DNA of 32,000 bases from the NCBI GenBank assembly GCA_964536865.1, contig CAZHYN010000015.1, positions 1-32,000 on the forward strand. The letters are read 5' to 3'. Origin of the DNA: an uncultured Planctomycetia bacterium. GTDB lineage: Bacteria; Omnitrophota; Gorgyraeia; Duberdicusellales; 4484-171. The notes under the pieces were generated by a model that was not told the DNA's origin, did no database searches, and saw only the letters and a program-made list of their open reading frames with translations. A program made the translations under genes and the position numbers. Shown piece by piece: positions 11,781 to 32,000 of this stretch (positions are counted from its first letter, which is position 1; each line of letters begins with the position of its first letter).

Positions 11781-11934
11781 TAATGAAAAATTTGGGTTAA
11801 ATAAAATTATTTACAATTTTATTAGATATATTATCTTATGGAATGAGAGTTTATTTTTACTTGGTAGGTATGTAAAAATACGTCTCTTTGCGATAGTTTT
11901 TAAGATATAGGATCATATCTGGCGTGTTGCCTCA

Positions 11935-18894: not shown

Positions 18895-19049
18895 CTACCT
18901 CCTTAAAAAAAGATATAATAATGAAGGTTGTCTAAGGAAAGGAGGTAGATATGCAAGGTTTAGAAAGAGTAAAAAGGTTTAGGTATTTTTCCACCATAGG
19001 TGGATCCTTCGCCTGAGGCGAATCCACCTCTGGTGGAACCTCTGGTGGA
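18895..19049 (+). ncRNA. candidate IS110 bridge/seek-type RNA or translational control leader
   Basis: Perfect 10-bp stem CTACCTCCTT (18895-18904) / AAGGAGGTAG (18939-18948). This is followed by GC-rich, mutually exclusive hairpins CCACC-ATA-GGTGG (18991-19003), GGTGGA...TTCGCC-TGA-GGCGAA TCCACC (18999-19028) and CCACC-TCT-GGTGG (19024-19036). A tandem 12-mer ACCTCTGGTGGA x2 (19026-19049) abuts the ATG. Confidence 0.3.
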
Positions 19050-20021
19050 ATGGGAATTGACCAGCACAAAAGATATTCTCACATCACGATAATTGATGAG
19101 ATAGGAGACTTAGTAGAAGAAAGAAAACTATACCATTATGATAAAGAAGGTATGCTTAATTATTTTAAATCCTTTAATCCCCACCAAACAAAAGTAGTAT
19201 TAGAAGCAACTGGAAATTGGTATTGGTTAGCCGACCTTTTAGAATCAGCCAACTTAACCCATATATTAGCCCATCCTTACAAAACAAGAATAATTGCTGA
19301 AAGTAAGATAAAAACAGACTCCATATCAAGCTTTACCTTAGCTCAACTGTTGAGAGCAGGACTTATTCCTCAGAGCTATTTAGCTGGCAGGAAGACAAGG
19401 TCTCTAAGAGAGCTATTAAGATACAGAATCTCCTTAGTTAAGGTAAGGAGTTCTTTAAAATGCCGGATTCACTCTATATTAGATAGAGAAGGAATAGATA
19501 CCCCTCAAATTTCTGATTTATTTGGCAGGAAAGGTTTAATGTGGCTGGAAAGCTTATCTTTAGCTTACCCTCTATCTTGCTCCTTAAAAGATTATCTTAA
19601 TCTTATTGAGAGACTAAATTCTTTAATAGATGAGACGGAAAAATCAATAAAATTAACTATAAAAGAAAACCCTTTAGCCCAACTTCTTCTTACTGTTCCC
19701 GGAATTGGTTTCTTTACAGCCTATCTTATTCTTTGTGAAGTAGTAGATATAACCAGATTCCTAACTCCTAAAAAACTTTCCTCCTATATAGGAATAGTTC
19801 CCTCAATTCATCAATCAGGAAACTTCTCTCACACAGGAAAGATAACCAAACAGGGAAATAAATACCTAAGATGGGCACTAATTGAAGCATCCCAGAAAGC
19901 AATAATAAAAGATCCCTATTTAAAAGCAATATATGATAAAATAACCTATAAAAAAGGAAAACAATCTGCCAGAGGCAGATCCGCTCTTGGCGGAAAAAGT
20001 AAAGGTAGCAGTTGTCAATAA
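19050..20021 (+). CDS. IS110 family transposase (3' end frameshifted; family C-terminus continues in +1 frame to 20121)
   Basis: MGIDQHKRYS..I.IID, VLEATGNWYW (DEDD N-domain), VPGIGFFTAYLILCEV.DI.RF...KKLSSYIGIVPSIHQSGN....GKITKQGNKYLRWALIEA (Transposase_20 domain). The +1 frame from 19996 reads KVKVAVVNKLAYNMSNIKIQEPY..., the usual family tail. Confidence 0.85.
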   Translation: MGIDQHKRYSHITIIDEIGDLVEERKLYHYDKEGMLNYFKSFNPHQTKVVLEATGNWYWLADLLESANLTHILAHPYKTRIIAESKIKTDSISSFTLAQLLRAGLIPQSYLAGRKTRSLRELLRYRISLVKVRSSLKCRIHSILDREGIDTPQISDLFGRKGLMWLESLSLAYPLSCSLKDYLNLIERLNSLIDETEKSIKLTIKENPLAQLLLTVPGIGFFTAYLILCEVVDITRFLTPKKLSSYIGIVPSIHQSGNFSHTGKITKQGNKYLRWALIEASQKAIIKDPYLKAIYDKITYKKGKQSARGRSALGGKSKGSSCQ

Positions 20022-20272
20022 ATTAGCATATAATATGAGCAACATTAAAATACAAGAACCCTATAGATCTAAAAAAACTAATAATATCCTTATGCCTCAG
20101 GCAACCGATGATTTTTTCTGAGCAAAAAGAGCCCGACAAAATGAATGGGAAGCCCTAAGGCCTATCAAATAGACCGTATCCCGAAAAGTCGGGGCGAAGA
20201 GATGAATAGCTAAATGTCATTAAAAAAGAAAAGAAATTAAAGTTTTTATTGACAAGAGGGAGGTTTTCAGAG

Positions 20273-21235
20273 ATGAAAATTTTGGTAACAGGAGGATTAG
20301 GGTTTATAGGAAAGCAGCTGGTACAGCGGCTTATGAAGGAGAATCAAGTGATAGTGATAGATAAAAATACTGAAAAGGATAAATTTAAGGATAAATTTAT
20401 GGAAAGTAATTTGTTAATGTATAATTTAGATCTATCCCAATCTCCTCCCTTAGAATTTCTTAGAGATATAGATTATGTATTCCATTTAGCTACAGCCAAG
20501 GATTCAGCAGGTGAGAAGGTGTGTTATTTAACCAATGTGGAAGGAACAATAAATCTTCTTCACTGGCTTGCTGAGTTAAGTCCTAATTTAAAAAAATTTA
20601 TCTATATAGGTTCTCTTTTAAGTTATGGATTTGGTGAAAAGAAAAAAGCCAGTTCTTTATACGGAAAGACAAAACTATTAGCAGAAAGAGAGATAAGGAG
20701 ATTTGGCGATAGAATCCCTTATATTATTTTGCGCTCTTGCAGAGTCTATGGTCCCGGAGATAAAAGAGGAATTTATTTAATATTCAAATTCATAAAAAAA
20801 GGTTTTATCCCTGTAGTTTCTAAAGTAGAAGAAAGGTTTGCTAGCCTTATATATATAGATGATATAATAGAGGCGATGATATTAGCTGCACAAAGTAATA
20901 TAACAAATAAGGTTTATTCCATATCCGATGGAAACGTATATTCTTGGAAAGAGGTTTATGAAGCTATGGCTTTAGCTTTAGATAAAGAATATAAGAAATT
21001 ATATAAGATAACAATTCCTCAAAAATTAATAATAAAAGTCCTCCCACTTTTAAGAAATATAAGCAAACTATTGGGTGCCTCTTTAGAAGGGCAAAGCTTA
21101 GAAGAGTTAAGTTCTAAATATTGGACCTGTGATCCTTCAGATTTCTTTGAAGACACAGGCTTTAAGCCAAAGATATTTTTAAGAGAGGGGATGCAGAGAA
21201 CTGGAGAGTGGTTGAAGAATCAAGACCTATTGTGA
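20273..21235 (+). CDS. NAD-dependent epimerase/dehydratase family protein (extended SDR)
   Basis: MKILVTGGLGFIGKQLV (GxxGxxG), catalytic YGKTK (YxxxK), RVYGPGD. GAGGGAGG SD upstream of ATG 20273. The track start at TTG 20249 is unlikely. Confidence 0.85.
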   Translation: MKILVTGGLGFIGKQLVQRLMKENQVIVIDKNTEKDKFKDKFMESNLLMYNLDLSQSPPLEFLRDIDYVFHLATAKDSAGEKVCYLTNVEGTINLLHWLAELSPNLKKFIYIGSLLSYGFGEKKKASSLYGKTKLLAEREIRRFGDRIPYIILRSCRVYGPGDKRGIYLIFKFIKKGFIPVVSKVEERFASLIYIDDIIEAMILAAQSNITNKVYSISDGNVYSWKEVYEAMALALDKEYKKLYKITIPQKLIIKVLPLLRNISKLLGASLEGQSLEELSSKYWTCDPSDFFEDTGFKPKIFLREGMQRTGEWLKNQDLL

Positions 21236-21239: not shown

Positions 21240-22736
21240 ATGAAGATTTTATTTATCCATCTAGGAAAAGAACAATTAGGAATTGAATACATATCCAGCC
21301 TTTTAAAACAGGCAGGTCACAGTGTCTATCTGATAAATGATCCAGGACTTTTTAGTAGAGAAGACAATGTGTTTTACATACCTATACTAGAGAAAGTATT
21401 TGCGTATAGAAAGGAAGAAATTTTACAAAGAGCTAGAAAGATTAATCCCGATGTTATTGCTTTTTCAGTATATTCTACAACTTATCAATGGAGTAAAGCG
21501 ATAGCAGCTTATCTAAAAAAAGAGTTAAATCTTCCTATTGTATTTGGTGGTCCGCATGTAACATTAGTTCCTGAAGAGGTGTTAAAGAATACTTTTGTCG
21601 ATTTTATAATTATTGGTGAAGGAGAATATCCAATGCTTAATTTGGTAGAGGCGTTAGAAAAAGGAGATACTTTCTCTAGATTTAAAAAAATAAATAGCTT
21701 GGGATTCAAAGAAAATAGTAAGTTGATTATTAATCCTATGGATGAACCTGTAGACTTAGATGTTTTACCTTTCCCTGATAAGGAACTCTTTCGGGAGTAT
21801 ATAAATTATAAGTATGATTATCTTATTATGACTGGAAGAGGCTGTCCGGGGCGATGTACATATTGCTGTGAAGGTTTTTATAGCGCCCTTTACAAAGGAA
21901 AAAATGTTCGCAAGAGAAGTATCTCTAATGTGATAGAGGAGTTAAAAATGGCAAAAGAAAAATATAATTGTGAAGAAGTAATATTTTATGATACCGACTT
22001 TCTTCGAGATAAATCTTGGGTTTATGATTTCTTACCTCTCTATAAGGATCAGATAAATATTCCCTTCAAATGTTTAGCCCATATTAGAAATATAGATAGG
22101 GATACAGTAAATTTATTAAAAAAGTGTGGATGTTATTGTTTAAATTTTGGCATCCAAATTATAAATAACCAGATAAAGTCGCAAGTTCTCTATAGACCAG
22201 AAACAGAATTTGATGTATTAAATATATTAAGAATTTGTGACGAAGTTAGATTGAGATATGATTTAGATACCATCGTTGGCTTACCTAATGAAAAGGAAGA
22301 AGACCACCTTTTTACAATAGAATGTATTAAAAATGGCAAATTGCTTAATAGAGTAAAATGTTTTTATTTAGCCTATTTTCCAAATTTACCCATAGTTGAA
22401 GAAGCTTACAAAAAAGGTTATTTGGATGATAAAGACCTACAGGATATAAAAGAAGGAAAGAGGGCAAATTTTATTTACCCTTCTCATAAAGTAGATAAAA
22501 AAGATGAGAATTTACGTAGATTCTATAGAGTTTTTCCATTTTTACCTAAATTTATAATAAATTTAATATCGAAATATAAGTTATACCGTTTCTTCTATCG
22601 ACTTCCCCTATTTTTGATTATAATGGTTGAACTTTTAAATGGCATAAAGAAAAGAGACTACAGGTTTACATTATATATCAAAAATTATATCTACCAAATA
22701 CGTAGAAGATTATCTGGTAAATTTGAAGAGATATGA
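21240..22736 (+). CDS. B12-binding domain-containing radical SAM protein (class B), paralog of 17315-18820
   Basis: N-terminal cobalamin-type domain (AGHSVYLIND...PDVIAFSVY....LPIVFGGPH). CPGRCTYC CxxxCxxC motif. Starts 4 nt after the SDR gene. Confidence 0.85.
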   Translation: MKILFIHLGKEQLGIEYISSLLKQAGHSVYLINDPGLFSREDNVFYIPILEKVFAYRKEEILQRARKINPDVIAFSVYSTTYQWSKAIAAYLKKELNLPIVFGGPHVTLVPEEVLKNTFVDFIIIGEGEYPMLNLVEALEKGDTFSRFKKINSLGFKENSKLIINPMDEPVDLDVLPFPDKELFREYINYKYDYLIMTGRGCPGRCTYCCEGFYSALYKGKNVRKRSISNVIEELKMAKEKYNCEEVIFYDTDFLRDKSWVYDFLPLYKDQINIPFKCLAHIRNIDRDTVNLLKKCGCYCLNFGIQIINNQIKSQVLYRPETEFDVLNILRICDEVRLRYDLDTIVGLPNEKEEDHLFTIECIKNGKLLNRVKCFYLAYFPNLPIVEEAYKKGYLDDKDLQDIKEGKRANFIYPSHKVDKKDENLRRFYRVFPFLPKFIINLISKYKLYRFFYRLPLFLIIMVELLNGIKKRDYRFTLYIKNYIYQIRRRLSGKFEEI

Positions 22737-23956
22737 GAAGAGTGATTTTAATAAAAAGACCGTTCTTTTATGAAGGAGAGATACGAGATATTTTTTCTTT
22801 TTTCCTCTCTCAAGATAAAAATTGTCAATTGGAGAAATTTGAACAGAGGTTTTTAAAATATATAGGAGGAAAGTCTGCTTTTTGTACTATTTCAGGAAGA
22901 ATGGCTCTTTATTTGATATTGAAAGCCCTTAATTTAAAAGAGAAAGACGAAGTAATTCTCCCTGTTTATACTTTTTTTGCTATTCCTACCATCATTTCGT
23001 CTTTAGGGCTTAAGCCAGTATTTGTGGATATAGATGAAACTTGCAACATAAACCCTGAACTTATTCCAGAGAAGATAACCTCCCGTAGTAAAGTTATAAT
23101 TCCTACCCACCTTTTTGGTCAACCTTGTAATATGGAGAAGATTTCAAAAATAGCGAAAAAGTTTAATTTGTTTGTTATAGAAGATTGTGCCCATGCTTTG
23201 GGTGCTGAATATAAAGGGAGAAAAGTTGGAAGCTTAGGAGATGCCTCTTTTTTCAGTTTTAGTGTAAGTAAATTTATTAATACATTTAAAGGTGGAGCTG
23301 TTATAGTGAATAACTCTGCCTTACTTCCTAAGATAAAAACTGAATTTAGCAATTTTAAATATCCTCCCAAAAGTATTGTGTTAAAAATCATATTCAAGCT
23401 TCTTTTAACGAGACTATTTTTCAACCCTCCTATATATAGTAATTTTATTTTCCCTATTAACTTATACTTAAGAAATATGAAATATAGAAATGTGATGGAG
23501 CTATACCGGAAGATAATCTCTCGAAAAGAAGCAAAGAAAACCCATAACCTCCCAAAATATAGATACACTAATCTACAGGCTTCTATTGCCAATAAGCAGC
23601 TTTTACTTTTAGATAGGATCAATGATTTACGAAGGCAGAAATTAGAATTTTTATGCAGTAAGTTGAAACCCGAAATAAAGACTACGTATTTATCAAATAT
23701 AGAAGGTATAAAAAGCGCACCTTTAGTTTTAGGTATTTATTCAAACTCTAAAAAAGAGACTACAAAGAAACTATTAGAGAGAGGAATAGAGGTGGATGAT
23801 AATTTTATGCAAAATTGTTCCAAAATTTTTGATAGAGTAGGTCACTATCCCGTTGTCGAAAAAGTAGAAAAGGAGCTCCTTATTTTAAATATCGACCCAT
23901 ATTATAAAATGTGTGATTTGATACGTATTGCCCAAGCTCTTAATGAAATTATCTAA
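22733..23956 (+). CDS. DegT/DnrJ/EryC1/StrS family aminotransferase
   Basis: SGRMALYLILKAL......DEVILP.YTF.A, IPTHLFGQPC.M..I..IAKK.NLFVIEDCAHALGA.YKGRKVGSLGDASFFSF...K (PLP Lys)...GGA. ATGA overlap with the upstream gene. Confidence 0.85.
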   Translation: MRRVILIKRPFFYEGEIRDIFSFFLSQDKNCQLEKFEQRFLKYIGGKSAFCTISGRMALYLILKALNLKEKDEVILPVYTFFAIPTIISSLGLKPVFVDIDETCNINPELIPEKITSRSKVIIPTHLFGQPCNMEKISKIAKKFNLFVIEDCAHALGAEYKGRKVGSLGDASFFSFSVSKFINTFKGGAVIVNNSALLPKIKTEFSNFKYPPKSIVLKIIFKLLLTRLFFNPPIYSNFIFPINLYLRNMKYRNVMELYRKIISRKEAKKTHNLPKYRYTNLQASIANKQLLLLDRINDLRRQKLEFLCSKLKPEIKTTYLSNIEGIKSAPLVLGIYSNSKKETTKKLLERGIEVDDNFMQNCSKIFDRVGHYPVVEKVEKELLILNIDPYYKMCDLIRIAQALNEII

Positions 23957-23959: not shown

Positions 23960-24829
23960 ATGAAAAAAAATATTTTCATTAATTTTTTGTCATTATCCAT
24001 AACTTTTATCATTTTATTTTTTTTATTAAAAAAGGTTCAATGGTCTTTGATTAAACTTGTTCTTCACAGGCTAAAGATAGAATATTTGATATTAGCTCTT
24101 CTTTTTTCTTTTCTCGGTAATCCCATATTTAACTCCTTACAATGGAAAATGATTTTAGAAGCAATGGAATATAAGGTGGCTTTAAAAGATATATTATTTC
24201 TCAGAATTTCTACTGCTCCCTTTAAATCCGTTTTGCCTCTAAAAGTAGGAGATATATTGCGAGTTATCTTTCTTAAGAGATTTTATCGAGTGCCTCTTCT
24301 TATTAGTACTCTTTCTGTTTTTTCTCATTTAGCAATAAATGTTTTGACCTGCATAGTAGTCTTTGCTGTTGGAGCTGCTTTTAACGCCGTCATTCCCCTA
24401 AAGTGTAATATTTTTACTATTCACTTTCTGGGATTAAGTGTTCCAATAAGAAATACATTGAATATTTTCAAGAAGATGATATTGAAGAACTTCTTTATTA
24501 TTCTTTGCATTTCTTTGATCCGTTTCTTTTTTGAGATATTTTCTTTTAGTATTATAGGAAAAGCTTTAGGTATTTATATACCGTTGAATAAAATTCTATT
24601 GTTTTACCCTCTAGTTTCTCTCATTGCAAATTTACCTTTAGCTTTTGAAGGATTAGGAGTTAGAGAAGGTAGTATTATTCTACTTTTTTCCTCTTTCGCC
24701 TTACAAGAAGAGTTGTTTATATTAGGTTTCCTTACCTCTCTTATTTGCCATTTTTTAGTTCCTTTTATGGGAATTTTCTTCGTGTTTAAGTTGCTAAAAG
24801 ATTTAAATTTGAAAGATGAGAAAATATAA
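23960..24829 (+). CDS. UPF0104 / lysylphosphatidylglycerol-synthase-TM-like (flippase-like) membrane protein
   Basis: Polytopic 289-aa protein with the loop motif LPLKVGDILRVIFLKR and a late GLGVREG motif, as in the MprF flippase / HpnL-type family. Confidence 0.65.
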   Translation: MKKNIFINFLSLSITFIILFFLLKKVQWSLIKLVLHRLKIEYLILALLFSFLGNPIFNSLQWKMILEAMEYKVALKDILFLRISTAPFKSVLPLKVGDILRVIFLKRFYRVPLLISTLSVFSHLAINVLTCIVVFAVGAAFNAVIPLKCNIFTIHFLGLSVPIRNTLNIFKKMILKNFFIILCISLIRFFFEIFSFSIIGKALGIYIPLNKILLFYPLVSLIANLPLAFEGLGVREGSIILLFSSFALQEELFILGFLTSLICHFLVPFMGIFFVFKLLKDLNLKDEKI

Positions 24830-27146
24830 AGAGATAGGTGTCCTTATTATCTTTATATTTTTCTTCTTTGTTTTATTCAAAAAAATATTATTTGGAAAGG
24901 TATTTTTTCGGGGTGACATTTTTTTTATGCATCTTCCTGTATTTGAGTATTGGAGAGGGAATTTTTTTTCATTAGATAGTATTTTATGGTCGCCTTCTAT
25001 CTTTTTTGGATATCCTTTAGCTTCCAATCCCCAATTTGGATTATTTTATCCACTAAATTTAATTTTCGTATTTCTTTTTAAAGATACTCTGTATGCTTTA
25101 AATCTATTAATAATCTTCAACTACTTCTTAGGACTTTTATTTACTTATATCTATCTCAGAGAACTACAAATTTCTAAATTTGGCTCTTTGATAGGTAGTA
25201 TTTGTTTTATTTTTAATAGTTTCATGCTTGATTATCACGATAGCCTTCATGCTCTTTCAACAATGATATATTTACCATTGTTATTATTTATAATTGAGAA
25301 AATATTTAATGATGGAAAATTTTTATATATTGCCCTTTCAGCCTTATTAGTCGGTCTTCAGCTTTTAGCTGGACATAGCCAATATTTTTATATCTCTTGG
25401 ACGATAGTGGTCATCTATATTCTATATAAGGTAATTTCTCAGAAAAAATCCCTTAAAAAATCTATAATAATATTCTCTTCTATTTTTATAGTTGGATTTC
25501 TAATTGCCTCTATACAGCTTCTTCCTGCTTATGGTCTTGCGCAATTTTCTTCTCGTAATCTCGCAGTGCCTTCGGCTCTATCTTTGATATCTGAACGTGA
25601 AAGTGAGAGTTTAACTCTACAGAAGATTTTAGGGTTCTTTTTTTACCATTTTGGAATAAGGAAAGATTCTCCCTTTCAGCCCTGTTTTTTAGGAACTTTT
25701 CCTTTCATTCTTGGAACATTAGGAGTCAACTTTAAAAATAAAAAAGTAAATGGTCTATTTTTTCTGTTTATATTTGGCTTCTCTTTCTTACTGTGTTTAG
25801 GTAGATGTAGTTTTTTTTATGACCTCTTTAGCTATTTACCTTGGTATTCTTATTTTCACGATCCTCTCAAATGGGAGTTCATTTTAGTCTTTTCTATATC
25901 TGTACTTTCTGCATTAGGTGTTGAAAATCTGAAAAAAGTAAATTTTCTTTGGGTTATTTCAATGATAATTTCAATTTTTATACTATGCTTAATTGGATTT
26001 TTATTTTTACTTTATCATTTTGATTTGTTAAAAATAGCGATAAACGATGTTCTTTTTACTTTCGCTATAACAGTTTTCTTTATTATTATTTTGTTTGTTT
26101 TTGAAAAGTATAAAATTATTATAAAATCACTTATTTTTATTTTTTTTCTTGCTATCATCTTCATTTATAGTCATAGAAGTATAAGGGAAATTGAAAAGAG
26201 TTTGATTGACAAGAACCGAAAGAAATTAGAGAAATTTTCAAAAGTTTTGGATGATTTAAAGCAAAAAGATAATAGCAGAATTTACTTACATAAGGAGGCT
26301 AATTTTTTTTCAATTTTTTCTTACCATCTTTATTTATGGTTATATAATTTGAAACCTCGAGTGGACAAAAGATACATATTTTCTTATCTCGATTATCCAA
26401 TGGGTAATAACCTTCTTCCTTTTAGGATTCAACACTGTTCTGGTTATGCATCCCTTATTCCTGCAAGATACCTTGAGTTTACTAAAACCTCTATGGAAAT
26501 ATCTCCAATAAGGATGATGGGATATCCTGATTTTATTTTTTATCCTAATTATTTATTTTTAAGCAATATATCCATAGCTGTAGTTCCTAAGATCAGAGAT
26601 AATAAATACTTTCATACAGAGAGTTTATTTGAGAAAGTTTACGAAAATAATCAATTTGATATCTATCGAGTAAAAACCCTCTCCGAGAGAGCCTATTTTG
26701 CTAAAGATTTTATCGTAGAAAAGGATAGACACAATATTTTGGATATTTTAAAAAAGGATACTTTTGAGCCTAAGGAGGTTGTTGTCTTGGAGAAAGCTTT
26801 AGCTATTATTGAACCTAGGAGGGAGAAGAAACATGAAAGTTATAAAATTAACATAGAAGAATACAGCAATACAAGTATTGATATAAGTTTAGAGACAAAT
26901 TCTAGTGGTTTTCTTGTTTTATTAGATTCTTTCTACCCGGGATGGGTGGCCTATTTGGATGACAGAAATGTAGAAATTTTAAGAGCGAATTATCTATTTA
27001 GAGCAGTGTATATTCCTGAAGAGGGAAGACACAGAATAGTTTTTAGGTATAAGCCATATTTATTTAGAGTAGGCTGTTGGATAAGTATTTTGACCTTATT
27101 TTTTCTTTTGGGTAGTCTGAAGTTTGCTAAAAAAGAAGTATTTTAG
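24816..27146 (+). CDS. YfhO-like GT-C membrane glycosyltransferase
   Basis: About 12 or more TM helices with an early W.P..FFGYPL...PQ.G.FYPLN block. The C-terminal globular domain ends SGFLVLLDSFYPGWVAYLDDRNVEILRANYLFRAVYIPEEGRHRIVFRYKP plus a terminal TM, which is the YfhO family tail. 14-nt overlap with the upstream gene. Confidence 0.7.
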   Translation: MRKYKEIGVLIIFIFFFFVLFKKILFGKVFFRGDIFFMHLPVFEYWRGNFFSLDSILWSPSIFFGYPLASNPQFGLFYPLNLIFVFLFKDTLYALNLLIIFNYFLGLLFTYIYLRELQISKFGSLIGSICFIFNSFMLDYHDSLHALSTMIYLPLLLFIIEKIFNDGKFLYIALSALLVGLQLLAGHSQYFYISWTIVVIYILYKVISQKKSLKKSIIIFSSIFIVGFLIASIQLLPAYGLAQFSSRNLAVPSALSLISERESESLTLQKILGFFFYHFGIRKDSPFQPCFLGTFPFILGTLGVNFKNKKVNGLFFLFIFGFSFLLCLGRCSFFYDLFSYLPWYSYFHDPLKWEFILVFSISVLSALGVENLKKVNFLWVISMIISIFILCLIGFLFLLYHFDLLKIAINDVLFTFAITVFFIIILFVFEKYKIIIKSLIFIFFLAIIFIYSHRSIREIEKSLIDKNRKKLEKFSKVLDDLKQKDNSRIYLHKEANFFSIFSYHLYLWLYNLKPRVDKRYIFSYLDYPMGNNLLPFRIQHCSGYASLIPARYLEFTKTSMEISPIRMMGYPDFIFYPNYLFLSNISIAVVPKIRDNKYFHTESLFEKVYENNQFDIYRVKTLSERAYFAKDFIVEKDRHNILDILKKDTFEPKEVVVLEKALAIIEPRREKKHESYKINIEEYSNTSIDISLETNSSGFLVLLDSFYPGWVAYLDDRNVEILRANYLFRAVYIPEEGRHRIVFRYKPYLFRVGCWISILTLFFLLGSLKFAKKEVF

Positions 27147-27150
27147 AATT

Positions 27151-28095
27151 ATGAGTTTTATCCCTAAGATTATTAGTTGGATTTTAACTTATCGCTGCAA
27201 TCGGAATTGCATATATTGTGGTTCTCCTAGTAACCAAGGAGAATTATCTACCAAAGAACTCATTATATGTGCAAAAAAATTGAAGGATTTTGGAGTAAGA
27301 AGAATTTATTTTACTGGAGGAGAACCTTTGATTAGAGAAGATTTTGTTGAGATTGTCAATGTTTGCAGTAAGATGGGTTTTTTAGTTTATCTTAATACAA
27401 ATGGTGATTATATTGGAAGAGTAATCGGTGATATCAAGGATGTTAAGAAGGTAACTTTAAGTTTGGATGGACCTGAAGAAATTAATGATAGTATAAGAGG
27501 TGAGAATAGTTATAAGAATACTATAGAAGCTGTTGAGATTCTTAAAAGGAGAAATTTTGAAGTGAGTTTTTATACTGTTCTTTCTGAATTAAATTCTTTC
27601 CCTTTCGTAATTGATCATATACTTAATATAGTTAAATTCTTTAAAGCAACGGTTTTTTTTCAGCCAGCTAAGAGGTATCTTTTGAGAAATCCAAATGTGA
27701 AAAACCCCATTTTTCCATCCAAGGAAAAATACAAAAATATTATAAATTATATCTTTGATAGAAAGAGGCGAAATTATCTCTACATTGCCAATTCTTTTTC
27801 TGGACTAAAACATCTGGGTTACTTCCCAGAAGGAAAAGTTATTAACTGTGCAGGGACTCGATTATTTTATCGACTCGAGAATAATGCTGATCTTATAATA
27901 TGTAGCCAAAATAGAACTGTTTTTGGAAATCTTTTGAAAGATGATATTAGGAAATTTCCCTCCGGAAAAAATATTAAGTGTTCAAATTGTACTTTTGCCG
28001 CAAAGGTAGAAGCTAATTTGATATTTCAAGGTAATTTGGAGAGCAGCATTAATTATGTTTTAATTTCTTTTTTTAGGAAGTACTTTAACAGATAG
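27151..28095 (+). CDS. radical SAM protein with Cys-containing twitch/SPASM-like tail (MoaA/PqqE-like core)
   Basis: LTYRCNRNCIYC (CxxxCxxC), FTGGEPLIRED, YLNTNG, SLDGPEEINDSIRG. The C-terminus has C.G(x15)C...CSNC. ATG 27151 lies 4 nt after the upstream stop; the track TTG 27124 is unlikely. Confidence 0.85.
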   Translation: MSFIPKIISWILTYRCNRNCIYCGSPSNQGELSTKELIICAKKLKDFGVRRIYFTGGEPLIREDFVEIVNVCSKMGFLVYLNTNGDYIGRVIGDIKDVKKVTLSLDGPEEINDSIRGENSYKNTIEAVEILKRRNFEVSFYTVLSELNSFPFVIDHILNIVKFFKATVFFQPAKRYLLRNPNVKNPIFPSKEKYKNIINYIFDRKRRNYLYIANSFSGLKHLGYFPEGKVINCAGTRLFYRLENNADLIICSQNRTVFGNLLKDDIRKFPSGKNIKCSNCTFAAKVEANLIFQGNLESSINYVLISFFRKYFNR

Positions 28096-28100
28096 AAATA

Positions 28101-30527
28101 ATGAAGAATGAGAAGACTCCTTTCTTTCTAATCTTTTTAAGCTTTTTTATCTTTTTTCACAATATCTTTTTATCTTTTTATCATTTTACTCTACATGCCG
28201 AGCGTTTCGATAAACATTTTCTTTTTTCGTATTACCTCTATCACTATAAATCGTCGCTGTGGTTGCCCCATCTTTATTTAGGAATGCCTCTTTTTTCCAA
28301 TATAGAGCAAGGTTTTTTCTATCCCTTTTCTATTTTGACAAAAATTTTACCTCCTGTATGGTGTATTAATATGATTTTTATTGTTCATTTTCTGTTCGGT
28401 GGAATTTTTATTTATCTTTATGCAAAAAAGATAGGCTTGAGTAAAGAAGCTTGTTTGGGGGCTGTTTTTGTCTTTCTTTTTAATGGTTTTCTTTTGGGAA
28501 GCTATACTCATATGTTTGTTTTACAAAGTTATGTATACATTCCTCTTCTTCTTTATTTATCCGAAAAGTTTTTTGAAAATAAAAAATATATCTGGTTGAT
28601 TCTAATTGGTTTATCTTTAGGGCTCCAAGCTCTAACCGGAATGTTTCAATTTTTTTATTATACAGTATTGTTTTTGGCAGGATATTTTTTGTTTAAAAAA
28701 ATAATTTTAGGTTTATCTCTGCATAGGTGTTTTATGGTATTTATTTTTGTATTGATAATTAGCCTTGGAATTTTTGCGGTCCAATTTTTCCCTGTTTATG
28801 AACACTATTTGTTTTCAGCAAGGAAGTTTGCCTCTTTTGCTCAAGTTATGGATAGGCCTGGAGATACACTACAATTTTTAAATATTTTAGATTTTGTTTT
28901 TCCCGAATATATACAAGGTGATTTTGTAAATGCATTTAGTCCTGGCCATTTTGGTATTATCTCACTATTTTTGGCCCTGATAGCCATCTTAAATTATAAA
29001 AAAGCAAAATATAAAAATTATATTCTATTTTATAGTATATTTTTTATATTAACACTTTTACTCGCTGTAGGTAAATATACCCCTTTATACTACATACTTT
29101 ATCATTTAAGAATACCAGGGTTTTCTGTCTTTAAGAAGCCTTTACGAATAGAAGTTTTAACTATGTTTACATTAGCAATCCTTGTCGGTGAGGGTATAGA
29201 GATTCTAAGAAAAGTTGTTATTTCTCGCAAACAAATTTTCTTATATTTGTGTATCTTTTTTATATTTGCAATCCTGATTTGCTTCCACTTGCAAAATCAA
29301 AAAGTTGCACTTTCTAATCCAAATTATTCGCAGATAATCAACCCGGAAAGATTCCCTATTGGACTTTTAAAATTTCTTCATTCTCTTAGTATTAGGAACT
29401 TTTTTATTTTGATATTTTTAGCTTCAATTTTCTTCATTTCATTGGTTATAAAACTTAATTTAAGATTGAAGTATTATTTACCTATTCTAATTTTTCTTAA
29501 TTTATATTTATTTAGAAATTTTGATACACCTTTTTTTGCTTCAGGTGAACTTAAGTCTTCTTGGTTTAGAGAGCCTGAAAGCGTTAGTTTGATTAAGGAT
29601 AAATATAGTAAGTTATATAGAGTTGCTTCATTGGCTAATGATGATATATCAGGATGTTCGGAATCGAATATTAGAAGTCTAGAAGAAAAAGCTAATTGGT
29701 ATAATTTAACTTCATTATGTAGAGCTAAGCAATTTTACTGGACAAAGAAAACCTTGATTGAAAATACGCCTATTATTTATGATTTACATTCTTCTCTTGG
29801 ACACATTGTATTACCTACTCAAAGATATCTTGAGTTTGTGAAAACAGATCTAGAAATAGACCCTATGTCGAGTGAGTCGTATAATGACTTTATATTTCAT
29901 CCCAATTTTTTAAGTTTAACATCGAGTTCTTTTGTGATTGTTCCTCGCTGGCAAGATAAACCTTATTTCCATAATAGAGATCTGTTTGAGAGAATTTATG
30001 AAGATGATGAATTGTATATTTACTACTACCGATGGGCTTTAAAAAAGATCTTTTTTGTGCAAGATTATATTATAATGAAAAATAGAGAAGAGATATTGTC
30101 TTTCATTAAAAGTTCTCATTTCGATCCTAAAAGGACTGTAATCATTGAGACAATTCCTAAAAATTTTCAGCCAATCGATAAATATAGATATAATTTAAAG
30201 CCTAAATATACTTTAGAGATTAATGATTATCAAAATGATTTTGTTGAATTAAAACTTTCCACGGATACTTCAGGCTTTCTTGTTTTTCTCGACGCTTATC
30301 ATCCTGGTTGGAAGTCTTATATAGATGGGAAAGAGAATAGAGTCTTAAGAGCAAATTATATATTTAAGGCTATTTACATTCCTGATGGAGGGAAGTATAG
30401 AATCACTTTCAAATATAAGCCATTCTCTTTTAAAATAGGATGTATAATTAGTTGTTTAACGGCTGTCTTTTGTATTTTTGGGACGATTGTATGGAGAGAG
30501 AAACAAATGTGGCTAAGGATGAGCTGA
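28101..30527 (+). CDS. YfhO-like GT-C membrane glycosyltransferase, paralog of 24816-27146
   Basis: Same architecture. C-terminal SGFLVFLDAYHPGWKSYIDGKENRVLRANYIFKAIYIPDGGKYRITFKYKP plus a terminal TM. Shares the RYLEF.KT..EI.P......DFIF.PN.L.L block with the paralog. Confidence 0.7.
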   Translation: MKNEKTPFFLIFLSFFIFFHNIFLSFYHFTLHAERFDKHFLFSYYLYHYKSSLWLPHLYLGMPLFSNIEQGFFYPFSILTKILPPVWCINMIFIVHFLFGGIFIYLYAKKIGLSKEACLGAVFVFLFNGFLLGSYTHMFVLQSYVYIPLLLYLSEKFFENKKYIWLILIGLSLGLQALTGMFQFFYYTVLFLAGYFLFKKIILGLSLHRCFMVFIFVLIISLGIFAVQFFPVYEHYLFSARKFASFAQVMDRPGDTLQFLNILDFVFPEYIQGDFVNAFSPGHFGIISLFLALIAILNYKKAKYKNYILFYSIFFILTLLLAVGKYTPLYYILYHLRIPGFSVFKKPLRIEVLTMFTLAILVGEGIEILRKVVISRKQIFLYLCIFFIFAILICFHLQNQKVALSNPNYSQIINPERFPIGLLKFLHSLSIRNFFILIFLASIFFISLVIKLNLRLKYYLPILIFLNLYLFRNFDTPFFASGELKSSWFREPESVSLIKDKYSKLYRVASLANDDISGCSESNIRSLEEKANWYNLTSLCRAKQFYWTKKTLIENTPIIYDLHSSLGHIVLPTQRYLEFVKTDLEIDPMSSESYNDFIFHPNFLSLTSSSFVIVPRWQDKPYFHNRDLFERIYEDDELYIYYYRWALKKIFFVQDYIIMKNREEILSFIKSSHFDPKRTVIIETIPKNFQPIDKYRYNLKPKYTLEINDYQNDFVELKLSTDTSGFLVFLDAYHPGWKSYIDGKENRVLRANYIFKAIYIPDGGKYRITFKYKPFSFKIGCIISCLTAVFCIFGTIVWREKQMWLRMS

Positions 30528-30563
30528 TTCTTAATAGTATTTTTGTCATAATTAAAGACGGCT

Positions 30564-31541
30564 ATGAGAAATAGGACCTTATATCATCGATATAAATTAC
30601 TCTTTTCAATATTTCTTACTATGGGAATATTTTTCGTTCTATTTTCGAAGATAAAAATAGAGGAGGTTATAGGAGTTTTAGGACATGTAAAACCAGCTCT
30701 ATTTTTTTTAGCCGTTTTTATTTCAATCGCAAACAATATATTTTTATCCTCTGATAAATGGCGTCGAATTCTTCATGTTTTTGGTAGAGATATTACTCTC
30801 AAAGAAGCAATATTTATGAAGATGGGTAGTGATCCCATAATTAGCATACTGCCTATGAGAGCCGGGGAACTAACAAGGGTTGTTTATTTGAGGCAGTGGC
30901 ATAATTTTTCTTTTTTGAAGGGCTTTAGCTCAATCTTTTTTGAATTGGGGCTAAACTTCTTAGCTGTCTTATTTTTCATTTCAGTAGGTCATTTAATTTT
31001 GAACTTTAGCTTGATTAGTATAATTTCTTACATCTGTTTTTTAAGTTTAATCTTGTTTATAACAAGAAAGATACTATTTAAGCTAAGAATGAAAGAAGAG
31101 CTTATAAATTCTATAAGAGGATCTCGAATTAACATTTATAATTATCTTAGGGAGATTATCTATGTTTACAATAAGATTGGAAATAGAAGGTTATTAACTT
31201 TATTCATTTATTCTACAGTTTTTATAGCTTCTGAGTTAGCTAATTTTTACATATTGAGTGAAGGGCTAGACCTATCTATTCCATATCCATTAGTTTTTAT
31301 TTTCATTCCCTTAACTACAGTTATAACCAGTCTTCCCATTACTCTATTTGGTTTAGGGACAAGAGAAGCTGCTATTATTTTCTTTTTCTCGAAATATGGC
31401 TCTTTAAAACAACTGTTAAGTTTAGGTATTTTATATTCCTCTGTGGAATACCTTCTCCCTGTAGTTATTAGTTTAGTATATACGAAGCCTTTTATAGATA
31501 GATTGGTAACTACTAAAGAGGATTTTGGAAATTTAACATAA
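30564..31541 (+). CDS. UPF0104 / flippase-like membrane protein, paralog of 23960-24829
   Basis: Polytopic. LPMRAGELTRVVYLRQ loop motif and late GLGTREA motif. Confidence 0.65.
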   Translation: MRNRTLYHRYKLLFSIFLTMGIFFVLFSKIKIEEVIGVLGHVKPALFFLAVFISIANNIFLSSDKWRRILHVFGRDITLKEAIFMKMGSDPIISILPMRAGELTRVVYLRQWHNFSFLKGFSSIFFELGLNFLAVLFFISVGHLILNFSLISIISYICFLSLILFITRKILFKLRMKEELINSIRGSRINIYNYLREIIYVYNKIGNRRLLTLFIYSTVFIASELANFYILSEGLDLSIPYPLVFIFIPLTTVITSLPITLFGLGTREAAIIFFFSKYGSLKQLLSLGILYSSVEYLLPVVISLVYTKPFIDRLVTTKEDFGNLT

Positions 31542-31553
31542 AAAATTGAAGTG

Positions 31554-32000
31554 ATGTCGAGAATATTATTTTCCATTGGAAAGTCCTTTATAAAGTTTAA
31601 ACTGCTTAGATATAAAATTCCGTTGGTAGTAAGTTGGATGTTGACCAGTAGATGCAATCAGAGATGTTCTTATTGTAAGATCTGGGATGTGAAATTTAAC
31701 GAACTAAATACAAAACAGATTTTTTCTATAATAGATGAGTTAGTTTCAATGGGAACCAAGATTATTATATTTACAGGAGGAGAACCACTTTTAAGAGAGG
31801 ATATCGGCGAAATTATAACTTATACTACTTCAAGGGGTATTTATGTAAGTCTTAATTCAAATGGAGTATTGATAAAGAAGAGGATAAAGGAGATTAAAGG
31901 AGTAAATAGGATAAAATTGAGCATCGACGGTCCCAGACAAATACATGATTCCCTAAGAGGAGAGGGTTCTTTTGATAAAGTTATGGAGGCGATTACCATA
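31554..32000 (+). CDS. radical SAM protein (5' part; runs off the window), paralog of 27151-28095
   Basis: Not in the ORF track because it is open-ended. ATG 31554 opens MSRILFSIGKSF...VSWMLTSRCNQRCSYC (CxxxCxxC), FTGGEPLLRED, SLNSNG, SIDGPRQIHDSLRGEGSF, with no stop to the window end. Confidence 0.8.
   Translation, partial: MSRILFSIGKSFIKFKLLRYKIPLVVSWMLTSRCNQRCSYCKIWDVKFNELNTKQIFSIIDELVSMGTKIIIFTGGEPLLREDIGEIITYTTSRGIYVSLNSNGVLIKKRIKEIKGVNRIKLSIDGPRQIHDSLRGEGSFDKVMEAITI

What the first reader, a model, noticed from the sequence alone, without database searches (positions are those of the whole stretch)
23960..32000. Two paralogous UPF0104 / YfhO-like GT-C / small radical-SAM gene sets: a possibly undescribed envelope-modification cassette
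Seen: six consecutive + strand genes, with gaps or overlaps of 14 nt or less apart from one 36-nt gap (30528-30563), fall into two paralogous sets. The flippase-like UPF0104 proteins are at 23960-24829 and 30564-31541. The roughly 800-aa YfhO-like proteins are at 24816-27146 and 28101-30527, with near-identical C-terminal blocks (SGFLV.LD...PGW......LRANY.F.A.YIP..G..RI.F.YKP). The roughly 315-aa radical SAM enzymes are at 27151-28095 and 31554->32000, sharing C-N-x-x-C-x-Y-C, FTGGEPL.RED and S.DGP.

Established: YfhO-type GT-C enzymes transfer sugars from polyprenyl-phosphate carriers onto teichoic acids in Firmicutes. UPF0104 is the MprF flippase-like / HpnL-type domain. MoaA/PqqE-like radical SAMs with twitch/SPASM tails normally act on peptides or cofactors.

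Inference: co-duplication of all three components argues that they work as a unit. I am not aware of a described role for a small radical SAM enzyme alongside an extracytoplasmic GT-C transferase. It could modify the lipid-linked sugar or the carrier before flipping.
Basis: partly seen in the sequence, partly recalled or inferred. Interest (0 to 1): 0.72.

Follow-up and report, generated by a model that had tools for sequence, protein, structure and literature searches.

The report
Radical-SAM-rich envelope glycosylation gene array
The six genes are real and are the middle of a much longer array, probably from an Omnitrophota bacterium, that joins membrane sugar-transferases and flippase-like proteins to an unusually large set of radical-SAM enzymes that most likely tailor the sugars; this combination has not been described.

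Summary
Six tightly packed + strand genes encode two UPF0104 proteins, two YfhO-type GT-C transferases and two small radical SAM (rSAM) enzymes, and each pair is clearly homologous.

The window cuts the array. The same contig continues with three more rSAMs, a B12-domain rSAM, a second DegT aminotransferase, and then YfhO-3, a third small rSAM and YfhO-4.

The "co-duplicated triad" reading is only partly right:
- Gene order differs between the two sets.
- Only the two YfhO genes are each other's closest relatives. The rSAM and UPF0104 copies are old paralogs with closer relatives in other genomes.
- None of the 80 closest YfhO loci from metagenomes carries an rSAM or a UPF0104 gene.

The small rSAM belongs to an unnamed four-cysteine, twitch-like family with well over 150 representatives. 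In 17 independent loci it sits with:
- B12-domain rSAMs in 14;
- DegT aminotransferases in 9;
- GT-C proteins of interchangeable type (YfhO, PMT_2, DUF2079) in 9;
- UPF0104 in 6.

It also occurs fused to DegT in both orders, and fused to a B12-rSAM.

Best reading: an Arn/Gtr-like, lipid-carrier-dependent envelope glycosylation system whose sugars are tailored by rSAM plus aminotransferase chemistry. I rate it a new variant of a known kind. The enzyme chemistry is unknown.

The parts
13391..14599 (+). GT9 (heptosyltransferase-family) glycosyltransferase, upstream part of the same array
   Evidence: Pfam PF01075, 79.7 bits. The best NCBIfam match is LPS heptosyltransferase II, at 95 bits, below its cut-off of 134.6. 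A GT9 gene lies next to the C-type rSAM or UPF0104 gene in L009 and L013, and a GT9 gene is also present in L173.
15766..17337 (+). PMT_2/ArnT-like GT-C membrane glycosyltransferase
   Evidence: Pfam PF13231, 35 bits. About 10 hydrophobic segments. Close relative in C-family locus L169 (309 bits).
17294..18820 (+). B12-binding-domain radical SAM enzyme 1 (HpnJ-like; the true start is probably M8 at 17315)
   Evidence: Pfam B12-binding plus Radical_SAM. The best NCBIfam match is HpnJ, at 169 bits against a cut-off of 578. A 67% identical orthologue in an Omnitrophota MAG sits directly upstream of a C-type rSAM, a UPF0104 gene and a GT9 gene.
19050..20021 (+). IS110-family transposase inserted in the array (not part of the pathway)
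   Evidence: Pfam DEDD_Tnp_IS110 plus Transposase_20. Local GC of 0.358 against about 0.30 in the surrounding array.
20249..21235 (+). SDR-type NAD-dependent sugar epimerase/dehydratase
   Evidence: Pfam Epimerase, 95 bits. All NCBIfam matches are below their cut-offs. A 4-nt gap separates it from the next gene.
21240..22736 (+). B12-binding-domain radical SAM enzyme 2
   Evidence: Pfam B12-binding plus Radical_SAM. The best NCBIfam matches are the 'lipid biosynthesis B12/rSAM' model at 112 bits and HpnJ at 110 bits, both below their cut-offs.
22733..23956 (+). DegT/DnrJ/EryC1-family sugar aminotransferase 1
   Evidence: Pfam PF01041, 223 bits. PseC, ArnB and WecE-type models match below their cut-offs. 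It overlaps the preceding gene by 4 nt and ends 3 nt before A1.
23960..24829 (+). A1: UPF0104 / LPG_synthase_TM flippase-like membrane protein
   Evidence: PF03706, 66.5 bits. TIGR00374, 46.6 bits, above its cut-off of 43.2. Polytopic.
24816..27146 (+). B1: YfhO-family GT-C glycosyltransferase
   Evidence: PF09586, 96.7 bits. AF2 model with pTM 0.85. Every significant Foldseek match is a GT-C enzyme: STT3, ArnT, AftD and, just below, PglB. N-terminal polytopic domain, beta-rich C-terminal domain and a terminal TM helix.
27151..28095 (+). C1: small twitch-like radical SAM enzyme of an unnamed family
   Evidence: PF04055, 81.7 bits. No NCBIfam model reaches its cut-off. CX3CX2C plus four conserved C-terminal Cys. 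AF2 model with pLDDT 94.8, closest to SkfB, BlsE and SuiB. No TM segment.
28101..30527 (+). B2: YfhO-like GT-C paralog
   Evidence: 31% identical to B1 over the full length, E = 1e-103. Reciprocal best hit of B1. Same hydropathy layout as B1. Only a weak Pfam YfhO match.
30564..31541 (+). A2: UPF0104 / LPG_synthase_TM flippase-like membrane protein (alternative start at 30621)
   Evidence: PF03706, 95.6 bits, aligned end to end. Nearest relatives are UPF0104 genes next to C-type rSAMs in L170 and L009.
31554..32000 (+). C2: second C-type radical SAM enzyme, cut by the window end (330 aa on the full contig)
   Evidence: PF04055, 86.7 bits. The full gene is on L001 at 11416-12408. It scores 402 bits against the family profile.

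Best explanation
The six genes are the centre of one long co-directional array. It covers roughly window 13.4 kb to at least 10 kb beyond the window end. The source is an AT-rich genome, probably Omnitrophota. The array encodes a lipid-carrier-dependent, extracytoplasmic glycosylation system of the Arn / Gtr / CsbB-GtcA-YfhO type, with an unusually large radical-SAM sugar-tailoring branch.

Proposed flow:
1. **Sugar tailoring in the cytoplasm (inferred).** The soluble enzymes convert a common sugar precursor into several unusual amino, deoxy or rearranged sugars. These enzymes are one SDR, two DegT aminotransferases, three B12-domain rSAMs, three or more C-type twitch rSAMs and two other small rSAMs.
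2. **Role of the C-type rSAMs (inferred).** They act in the step adjacent to the aminotransferase. The most likely reaction is a two-electron oxidation of a sugar C-OH to the ketone that DegT then aminates, as with BtrN and its aminotransferase. A deamination or epimerisation of the DesII type is also possible.
3. **Loading and flipping (inferred).** The sugars are loaded on a polyprenyl phosphate. The UPF0104 proteins A1 and A2 carry them across the inner membrane.
4. **Transfer (inferred).** The GT-C enzymes transfer them to an envelope acceptor such as LPS core, another glycan or a surface protein. The GT-C set is YfhO B1, B2, B3 and B4, plus one PMT_2.

Shown here: family and fold assignments, operon-like packing, the extent of the array, the recurrence statistics and the gene fusions.

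Inferred: every substrate, the flippase role and the acceptor.

The alternation of GT-C and rSAM genes most simply reflects one tailored sugar per transferase. It is not evidence for a physical rSAM/GT-C complex.
For: **Array anatomy.** From the SDR gene at 20249 to C2, the gaps are 4, -4, 3, -14, 4, 5, 36 and 12 nt. The identical contig continues with:
- a 352-aa rSAM;
- a 452-aa B12-rSAM;
- a 355-aa rSAM/SPASM;
- a 400-aa DegT;
- YfhO B3, whose ORF is 759 aa;
- C3, 341 aa;
- YfhO B4, at least 609 aa.

**GT-C identity.**
- Pfam YfhO for B1.
- The B1 model matches only GT-C enzymes: STT3, ArnT, AftD, PglB and PMT.
- An acidic residue is conserved in the first loop in all seven sequences that cover it.

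**UPF0104 identity.** PF03706 for both A1 and A2.

**C family.**
- No NCBIfam equivalog.
- Twitch-like motif CX12GX4C...CX2C.
- The fold and profile are nearest to SkfB, PqqE, CteB, BlsE, anSME and MoaA.

**Link to sugar tailoring.**
- C-domain fused to DegT in both orders: P0235 is DegT-C, and P0272/P0309 is C-DegT.
- C-domain fused to a B12-rSAM: P0285.
- L009 holds a GT2-GT2-GT1-rSAM fusion of 1532 aa next to the C / UPF0104 / GT9 core.

**Neighbourhood statistics.**

| Partner | 17 C-family loci | 72 loci of other MoaA/PqqE-like rSAMs |
|---|---|---|
| B12-rSAM | 14 | 7 |
| DegT | 9 | 0 |
| any GT-C | 9 | 2 |
| UPF0104 | 6 | 0 |

**Related loci.** They also carry GT2, GT9, ABC-2 exporter and pyruvyl-transferase genes.

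**Precedents.**
- Three-component YfhO systems: PMC5836110, PMC7389260, PMC8035078.
- BtrN as a twitch rSAM that oxidises an aminocyclitol alcohol: PMC9012708.
- BlsE acting on a sugar nucleoside: PMC3715490.
Against: - No intact GT2 of the polyprenyl-phosphate sugar synthase type lies in the window. Only GT2 fragments remain, at 12687-13381. No nucleotidyltransferase or GtrA-type flippase is present either.
- The sequence similarity of the C family to the sugar-active BtrN and DesII is weak, at 32 and 29 bits. Similarity to peptide-modifying SkfB, PqqE and CteB is higher, at 96-119 bits.
- A flippase function for stand-alone UPF0104 proteins has not been demonstrated. The function of HpnL is still called unclear (PMC12324291).
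- My UPF0104, PMT_2, DegT and B12 profiles were built from proteins of C-family loci. This favours detection in those loci.
- The upstream part of the array shows decay: an IS110 element and several gene fragments.
Confidence: 0.5

Rival explanations
1. The rSAM, the UPF0104 protein and the GT-C enzyme form a dedicated three-part unit at the membrane. The rSAM modifies the lipid-linked sugar, or the carrier lipid itself, before the sugar is flipped and transferred. The reaction could be a ring contraction, cross-link or oxidation.
For: - C-UPF0104 adjacency recurs in L009, L011, L014, L170, L171 and here as A2-C2.
- L170 has three C genes, then UPF0104, then PMT_2.
- L005 has C followed by a YfhO-like gene twice.
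- GT-C and small rSAM genes alternate in the window array and in L173.
- There is a precedent for rSAMs acting on lipid-linked sugars: HpnJ on BHT-glucosamine and Cds on glycosyl-GDGT (PMC13459092). HpnJ lies in a gene set that includes the UPF0104 protein HpnL (PMC12324291).
Against: - C proteins have no TM segment.
- Fusions are to the soluble DegT and to a B12-rSAM, never to UPF0104 or GT-C among the 150 best representatives.
- The GT-C type is interchangeable, and a GT-C gene is absent from 8 of 17 loci. UPF0104 is absent from 11 of 17.
- 0 of 80 YfhO loci have an rSAM.
- The three components have different duplication histories.
Confidence: 0.2
2. A Hpn-like lipid-elaboration module. The rSAMs, UPF0104 proteins, SDR and aminotransferases build and decorate a polar side chain or head group on a polyprenoid or other membrane lipid. 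This would parallel HpnH/HpnJ/HpnL/HpnA/HpnO on hopanoids, rather than decorating a glycan polymer.
For: - The best NCBIfam hit of two B12-rSAMs is HpnJ, at 169 and 141 bits. The third B12-rSAM hits the 'lipid biosynthesis B12/rSAM' model and HpnJ.
- C1 aligns end to end with the HpnH model, residues 14-297 against model positions 27-313 of 318.
- The SDR weakly matches HpnA.
- UPF0104 is the HpnL superfamily.
Against: - All these scores are far below the curated cut-offs: HpnJ 169 against 578, HpnH 54 against 225.
- HpnH is not the best match of C1. MftC, NirJ and AhbD score higher.
- No HpnL (TIGR03476) hit for A1 or A2.
- No squalene or hopene cyclase or isoprenoid gene in the window.
- Five GT-C genes, a GT9 gene, and GT2/GT4/ABC-2 genes in related loci argue for glycan assembly.
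Confidence: 0.1
3. Peptide (RiPP) maturation. The SPASM/twitch rSAMs modify a ribosomal peptide, which might then be glycosylated and exported.
For: - The closest solved relatives by profile are peptide-modifying enzymes: SkfB, PqqE and CteB.
- A PqqD-like (peptide-recognition) ORF lies at 11181-11498.
Against: - The PqqD-like ORF carries an in-frame TGA and is about 9 kb upstream of the intact SDR-to-C2 stretch, which starts at 20249. TGA is a normal stop in this window, used in 6 of 24 genes.
- Intergenic gaps of at most 36 nt leave no room for a precursor gene between 20249 and 32000.
- The small ORFs in L170 are remnants of a B12-rSAM gene, not precursors.
- The genomic context is glycan genes throughout.
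Confidence: 0.04

Closest known systems
Three-component transmembrane glycosylation systems: CsbB-GtcA-YfhO (Bacillus, Listeria), GtrA/GtrB/Gtr(type), and ArnB/ArnC/ArnEF/ArnT
   Same: - A YfhO- or PMT_2-type GT-C enzyme with a polytopic N-terminal domain and an extracytoplasmic C-terminal domain.
- A small polytopic membrane protein encoded beside it that could be the flippase.
- In the Arn case, a DegT-family aminotransferase and an SDR domain that make the amino sugar (own knowledge; YfhO systems in PMC5836110, PMC7389260, PMC8035078).
   Different: - The putative flippase is UPF0104 rather than GtrA/GtcA or ArnE/F.
- No intact polyprenyl-phosphate GT2 lies in the window.
- There are four YfhO paralogs in a row.
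- At least eight rSAM genes are interleaved. No such genes occur in the known systems or in the 80 nearest YfhO loci.
Sugar-tailoring pairs of a radical SAM enzyme and a DegT-family aminotransferase: BtrN with the DOI aminotransferase (butirosin), and DesI/DesII/DesV (desosamine)
   Same: - A small rSAM encoded next to a DegT-family aminotransferase, or here even fused to it.
- Like BtrN, the C family has a single auxiliary-cluster (twitch-type) cysteine set (PMC9012708).
   Different: - Sequence similarity is only at superfamily level: BtrN 32 bits and DesII 29 bits against the family profile.
- The context is envelope glycosylation rather than antibiotic biosynthesis.
- The family forms tandem arrays of up to six paralogs.
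Hopanoid side-chain genes HpnH (rSAM), HpnJ (B12-domain rSAM), HpnL (UPF0104) and HpnA (SDR)
   Same: The same combination of protein superfamilies in one locus. HpnJ is proposed to rearrange a lipid-linked amino sugar (PMC13459092, PMC12324291).
   Different: - Every Hpn model scores far below its cut-off, and there is no HpnL hit.
- No cyclase or isoprenoid genes are present.
- There are many GT-C genes.
SkfB, PqqE and CteB (SPASM/twitch peptide-modifying rSAMs)
   Same: Best fold and profile matches of the C family.
   Different: - There is no precursor peptide.
- There is no N-terminal peptide-recognition (RRE) domain in the 314-aa protein. The alignment to SkfB starts at SkfB residue 107.
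- The seven-cysteine SPASM motif is absent.

Membership tests
YfhO (PF09586) GT-C glycosyltransferases | Match to the Pfam YfhO model above its gathering score | tested here: met
   B1: 96.7 bits against 28.5. B2: no hit at E <= 0.01 in my scan and only 'weak' in the precomputed record. B2 is 31% identical to B1 end to end, E = 1e-103.
YfhO (PF09586) GT-C glycosyltransferases | GT-C fold: polytopic N-terminal domain plus an extracytoplasmic C-terminal domain | tested here: met
   B1 model with pTM 0.85. All 8 Foldseek matches at E <= 0.001 are GT-C enzymes (STT3, ArnT, AftD), and PglB follows at E = 0.003-0.005. Hydropathy gives about 11-13 TM segments, then a beta-rich domain and a terminal TM helix.
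YfhO (PF09586) GT-C glycosyltransferases | Conserved acidic residue in the first extracytoplasmic loop (general GT-C feature; own knowledge) | tested here: met
   One aligned D/E column in all 7 sequences that cover the N-terminus: B1 RGD, B2 HAE. Its position relative to the membrane was not modelled explicitly.
YfhO (PF09586) GT-C glycosyltransferases | Use of a polyprenyl-phosphate-sugar donor, with partner CsbB-like GT2 and GtcA/GtrA flippase | tested here: not met
   No GtrA-family gene. Only GT2 fragments at 12687-13381. Donor use itself is not testable with these tools. GT2 genes are the commonest neighbours of ordinary YfhO genes, at 26 of 142.
UPF0104 / LPG_synthase_TM (PF03706, TIGR00374) | Match to the family models above their cut-offs | tested here: met
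   PF03706: A1 66.5 bits and A2 95.6 bits against 33.4. TIGR00374: A1 46.6 against 43.2 (met), A2 38.0 (just below).
UPF0104 / LPG_synthase_TM (PF03706, TIGR00374) | Lipid flippase activity | not testable with these tools
   Flipping is shown only for the MprF domain (own knowledge). HpnL is still of unknown function (PMC12324291).
MprF (bifunctional) / HpnL subfamilies | Equivalog-level match | tested here: not met
   MprF NF033480: 15.7 bits against 600. No synthase domain. No HpnL (TIGR03476) hit at E <= 0.01.
Radical SAM superfamily (PF04055) | CX3CX2C cluster motif and Pfam match | tested here: met
   C16/C20/C23 are invariant in 43 sequences. PF04055: 81.7 bits (C1) and 86.7 bits (C2).
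SPASM-domain rSAMs (PF13186) | Seven-cysteine SPASM motif and PF13186 match | tested here: not met
   No PF13186 hit for C1. Only four conserved C-terminal Cys, at positions 233, 251, 277 and 280, plus Cys282 in at least 90% of the closest 15 members; C1 itself has Thr there.
Twitch-domain rSAMs (one auxiliary cluster; BtrN, MoaA, SkfB) | Truncated SPASM tail with a CX9-15GX4C hairpin and further Cys ligands | tested here: met
   C233-x12-G246-x4-C251 ... C277-x2-C280 is conserved across the family. The best structural match is the twitch enzyme SkfB, TM 0.71. Cluster binding itself is not testable here.
Named rSAM equivalogs (MftC, PqqE, MoaA, NirJ/AhbD, HpnH, BlsE, viperin) | NCBIfam score above the curated cut-off | tested here: not met
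   The best for C1 is MftC at 83 bits against 265. HpnH scores 54 against 225, and MoaA 59-67 against 231-325.
BtrN/DesII-type sugar-tailoring rSAM paired with a DegT aminotransferase | Genetic coupling to a DegT-family aminotransferase | tested here: met
   DegT is present in 9 of 17 C-family loci and 0 of 72 control loci. There are DegT-C and C-DegT fusion proteins. In the window, DegT-1 lies 3.2 kb upstream of C1 in the same gap-free array.
BtrN/DesII-type sugar-tailoring rSAM paired with a DegT aminotransferase | Sequence membership and sugar substrate | tested here: not met
   BtrN 32 bits and DesII 29 bits against the family profile. The substrate is not testable.

The most novel reading that the evidence does not exclude
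The alternating GT-C / twitch-rSAM design, together with HpnJ-like B12-domain rSAMs and UPF0104 proteins, could mark a new mode of envelope glycan assembly. In it, each lipid-linked sugar would be radically rearranged at the membrane before or after flipping, for example ring-contracted to an aminocyclitol or C-C cross-linked. Omnitrophota and some DPANN and deltaproteobacterial lineages would then carry carbocyclic or otherwise non-hydrolysable surface glycans made by a modular 'one rSAM, one GT-C' logic.
Probability: 0.12. Interest if true: 0.85.

Novelty: new variant of a known kind. Interest (0 to 1): 0.6.

Why it matters
Radical SAM enzymes are rarely found in envelope polysaccharide or LPS pathways. 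Here at least eight of them lie in about 25 kb, next to five GT-C transferases. The same design recurs in uncultured lineages: Omnitrophota, Woesearchaeota, Methanosarcinales and deltaproteobacterial MAGs.

- **Unassigned enzyme family.** The small rSAM has well over 150 representatives at 50% identity, no curated model and no known reaction.
- **A direct experiment.** Its fusions to DegT aminotransferases suggest a test: an anaerobic, NAD-independent route to keto- and amino-sugars.
- **Surface chemistry.** The locus may explain part of the surface chemistry of Omnitrophota, which are thought to live attached to or preying on other cells (own knowledge). It would also give a handle on the unproven flippase role of stand-alone UPF0104 proteins.

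Tried and rejected
1. **Genome-collection scan with the rSAM alignment.** Only 8-9 of the 80 loci were true family members. I used the rest as a background set.
2. **Word-indexed protein search.** It suggested a tiny family of about 75 proteins. The exhaustive profile search showed this was an artefact of the index.
3. **Recent block duplication.** Rejected by best-hit ranks and by gene order.
4. **RiPP reading.** There is no room for precursor genes. The PqqD-like ORF has an in-frame TGA. The small ORFs in L170 are B12-rSAM remnants.
5. **TGA recoding.** Rejected, because TGA ends 6 of 24 ordinary genes.
6. **Promoter and terminator scan.** Counts are at the level of shuffled sequence and are uninformative.
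7. **Rfam.** Only two tRNAs, and nothing in the array.
8. **B3 as an N-terminally truncated pseudogene.** The 645-aa gene call lacks the N-terminus, but the ORF extends to 759 aa and aligns end to end with relatives.
10. **Literature.** No paper links YfhO, UPF0104 or LPS of Omnitrophota with radical SAM enzymes.

Full report
**1. The observation**

The six + strand ORFs are present at the reported coordinates.
- A1: 23960-24829.
- B1: 24816-27146.
- C1: 27151-28095.
- B2: 28101-30527.
- A2: 30564-31541.
- C2: 31554 to the window end.
- Gaps and overlaps are -14, 4, 5, 36 and 12 nt.

The pairs are homologous well beyond chance.
- B1/B2: 31% identity over the full length, E = 1e-103.
- A1/A2: 26% identity, E = 2e-25.
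- C1/C2: 43% identity over the part in the window, E = 2e-36.

Pfam places A1 and A2 in LPG_synthase_TM, B1 in YfhO, and C1 and C2 in Radical_SAM.

Three corrections apply.
- B2 has only a weak direct YfhO match and is assigned through B1.
- No SPASM domain is detected in C1.
- The order is A-B-C and then B-A-C.

**2. The window cuts the array**

A public contig (L001/L174) is identical to the window from position 20139 onward and runs about 10 kb further. After C2 it encodes, in order:
- a 352-aa rSAM;
- a 452-aa B12-domain rSAM;
- a 355-aa rSAM with a SPASM match;
- a second DegT aminotransferase;
- a third YfhO, B3 (a 759-aa ORF);
- a third C-type rSAM, C3 (341 aa, 35-40% identical to C1 and C2);
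- a fourth YfhO, B4 (at least 609 aa).

Upstream in the window, on the same strand, lie:
- a GT9 glycosyltransferase;
- a PMT_2/ArnT-like GT-C;
- a B12-domain rSAM;
- an IS110 transposase;
- an SDR epimerase/dehydratase;
- another B12-domain rSAM;
- a DegT aminotransferase that ends 3 nt before A1.

The finding is therefore the middle of an array of about 25-30 kb. That array holds at least five GT-C genes, two UPF0104 genes, at least eight rSAM genes, two DegT genes, an SDR and a GT9.

The array is AT-richer than the housekeeping genes in the first 11 kb: GC 0.28-0.33 against 0.34-0.40. It also contains an IS element and gene fragments. This fits the hypervariable cell-surface loci reported for Omnitrophota (bioRxiv 10.64898/2026.06.07.730766).

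The organism is probably an Omnitrophota bacterium.
- Named homologues of C1 come mostly from that phylum.
- The first B12-rSAM has a 67% identical orthologue in an Omnitrophota MAG.

**3. What the proteins are**

*B1 (YfhO).* It has a polytopic N-terminal half, a beta-rich C-terminal domain and a final TM helix. Its AF2 model (pTM 0.85) matches only GT-C enzymes: STT3, ArnT, AftD, PglB and PMTs. An acidic residue is conserved in the first loop in all seven sequences that cover it.

*A1 and A2 (UPF0104).* They are stand-alone UPF0104 proteins. They have no MprF synthase domain and no HpnL match.

*C1 (small rSAM).*
- It is soluble.
- It has CX3CX2C plus four conserved C-terminal cysteines arranged CX12GX4C...CX2C. 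This is a twitch-type tail (definition in PMC9012708).
- Its AF2 model is confident, with pLDDT 94.8.
- The model is nearest to SkfB, BlsE, SuiB, CteB, viperin, PqqE, DesII and MoaA.
- The family profile scores SkfB 119, PqqE 97, CteB 96, BlsE 84, anSME 83, MoaA 82, BtrN 32 and DesII 29 bits.
- No NCBIfam model comes near its cut-off.

An exhaustive profile search shows that the family is large. More than 150 representatives at 50% identity score at least 334 bits, and C1 itself scores 347.

**4. Is the triad a unit?**

*Reverse test.* I took the 80 closest YfhO loci in JGI metagenomes.
- None carries any MoaA/PqqE-like rSAM or a UPF0104 gene.
- The commonest Pfam families among 142 direct neighbours are GT2 (26), PMT_2 (19), GT1/GT4 (11), pilin N_methyl (11) and methyltransferases (7). 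Radical_SAM and LPG_synthase_TM are not among the top 25.
- YfhO paralog arrays are common in their own right: 35 of 80 loci have two or more.

*Forward test.* I compared 17 independent loci holding a C-family member with 72 loci of other MoaA/PqqE-like rSAMs.

| Partner within the locus | C-family loci (n = 17) | Other rSAM loci (n = 72) |
|---|---|---|
| B12-domain rSAM | 14 | 7 |
| DegT aminotransferase | 9 | 0 |
| Any GT-C | 9 | 2 |
| UPF0104 | 6 | 0 |

Among the nine C-family loci with a GT-C gene, YfhO-like genes occur in 5, PMT_2 in 7 and DUF2079 in 2.

Individual examples:
- L009 (Omnitrophota): GT2, B12-rSAM, C, UPF0104, GT9, then a 1532-aa GT2-GT2-GT1-rSAM fusion.
- L170: three C genes, UPF0104, PMT_2, an unannotated 536-aa gene, remnants of a B12-rSAM gene, then three more C genes.
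- L005: C followed by a YfhO-like gene, twice.
- L173: small rSAM and GT-C genes alternating.

The complete C + UPF0104 + YfhO combination was seen only in the window's own contig.

*Paralog history.*
- For C2, C1 ranks 234th and C3 ranks 200th of 266 family members. C2's best hits are 46-47% identical proteins from elsewhere.
- A2 is closer to the UPF0104 of L170 and L009 (about 35%) than to A1.
- Only B1 and B2 are reciprocal best hits.

The three components therefore did not duplicate together.

**5. What the rSAM works with**

Three fusion proteins contain a full C-family domain:
- DegT-C (P0235);
- C-DegT (P0272/P0309);
- B12-rSAM-C (P0285).

The loci of the two DegT fusions that I fetched, L172 (P0235) and L173 (P0309), are again packed with GT-C, GT2, GT9 and ABC-2 genes.

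Fusion to a soluble sugar aminotransferase, in both orders, is the strongest functional clue available. It mirrors two known pairs. One is BtrN with its aminotransferase, in which a twitch rSAM oxidises an alcohol to the ketone that is then aminated (PMC9012708). The other is DesI/DesII/DesV (own knowledge).

**6. Most likely mechanism**

The array most likely encodes an Arn/Gtr/CsbB-GtcA-YfhO-like extracytoplasmic glycosylation system (PMC5836110, PMC7389260, PMC8035078). Its donor sugars would be tailored in the cytoplasm by the SDR, DegT, B12-domain rSAMs and C-type rSAMs. They would then be carried on polyprenyl phosphate, flipped by UPF0104 proteins and transferred by the YfhO and PMT_2 enzymes. 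The acceptor would be an envelope molecule, and LPS core is plausible given the GT9 gene.

Only the family and fold assignments, the packing, the recurrence statistics and the fusions are shown. Substrates, flipping and the acceptor are inferred. I give this reading a confidence of 0.5.

Weak points:
- there is no intact GT2 in the window;
- the C family is closer in sequence to peptide-modifying rSAMs than to BtrN or DesII;
- the locus sample is small;
- my profiles were built from C-locus proteins.

**7. Rivals**

- *A Hpn-like lipid head-group pathway (0.1).* It rests only on sub-threshold model matches.
- *A RiPP pathway (0.04).* It lacks a precursor gene and relies on a PqqD-like ORF that carries an in-frame stop.

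**8. Novelty**

No paper in the searched library connects YfhO, UPF0104 or Omnitrophota envelope genes with rSAM enzymes. The C family has no curated model.

I classify the system as a new variant of a known kind: lipid-carrier-dependent periplasmic glycosylation with an rSAM-heavy tailoring branch and UPF0104 in the flippase position. Interest is 0.6.

If the rSAMs act on lipid-linked sugars in a modular 'one rSAM, one GT-C' fashion, it would be a new mode of glycan assembly. I put the probability of that at about 0.12.

Noticed in passing
window 11181-11498 (+): PqqD-like ORF (Pfam PqqD, E = 2.2e-8 when read through) interrupted by a single in-frame TGA at 11322-11324. The TGA sits exactly where the family has a conserved Trp. 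TGA is a normal stop elsewhere in the window, so this looks like a TGG-to-TGA nonsense mutation in a peptide-recognition-type gene upstream of the rSAM-rich array.
   Followed up: partly
window 11500-13381 and 14630-15734: A low-coding stretch holds GT2 fragments (12687-12845 and 13061-13381) and an unassigned 80-aa ORF on the - strand (12152-12394; no Pfam hit). A fragmented DUF362 plus 4Fe-4S ferredoxin gene lies at 14630-15734. The upstream part of the array therefore appears to be decaying.
   Followed up: partly
window 19050-20021 (+): An intact IS110-family transposase is inserted between the first B12-rSAM and the SDR gene. A perfect 12-nt tandem duplication (ACCTCTGGTGGA x2) lies at 19026-19050, just before its start.
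   Followed up: partly
window 6010-6068, inside the adenosylhomocysteinase gene (5609-6910): A heptanucleotide tandem repeat (TACAAAT x 8.4, 94% matches) lies in frame inside an otherwise conserved SAM-cycle gene. It encodes YKLQITD repeats. Gain or loss of one unit would shift the frame, so this is a possible slipped-strand switch. The gene sits next to metK (4454-5605).
   Followed up: no
window 553-625 and 797-870 (+); ORF 484-804 (-): tRNA-Met(CAT) and tRNA-Val(CAC). The 106-aa ORF on the opposite strand overlaps them and is spurious.
   Followed up: yes
window 1-11000 versus 11000-32000: There is a composition step: GC 0.34-0.40 in the housekeeping part against 0.28-0.33 in the glycan array. 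This is compatible with a horizontally exchanged or hypervariable surface locus.
   Followed up: no
L005 19814->, L170 1-5003 (-), L009 13269-17867: Giant multi-domain proteins occur in related loci. One is 1472 aa with three rSAM-SPASM modules. One is 2234 aa with several B12-rSAM and SPASM modules. One is 1532 aa with a GT2-GT2-GT1-rSAM layout.
   Followed up: partly
L089-L168 (YfhO loci from metagenomes): 11 of 142 direct neighbours of YfhO genes are type IV pilin-like (N_methyl) proteins. 35 of 80 loci hold two or three YfhO paralogs. This hints that some YfhO enzymes outside Firmicutes glycosylate pilins.
   Followed up: no
L170 15771-15983: Two tiny called genes (27 and 41 aa) that could be mistaken for precursor peptides are remnants of a B12-domain rSAM gene. 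Their sequences match the C-terminal part of the window protein at 17294-18820.
   Followed up: yes
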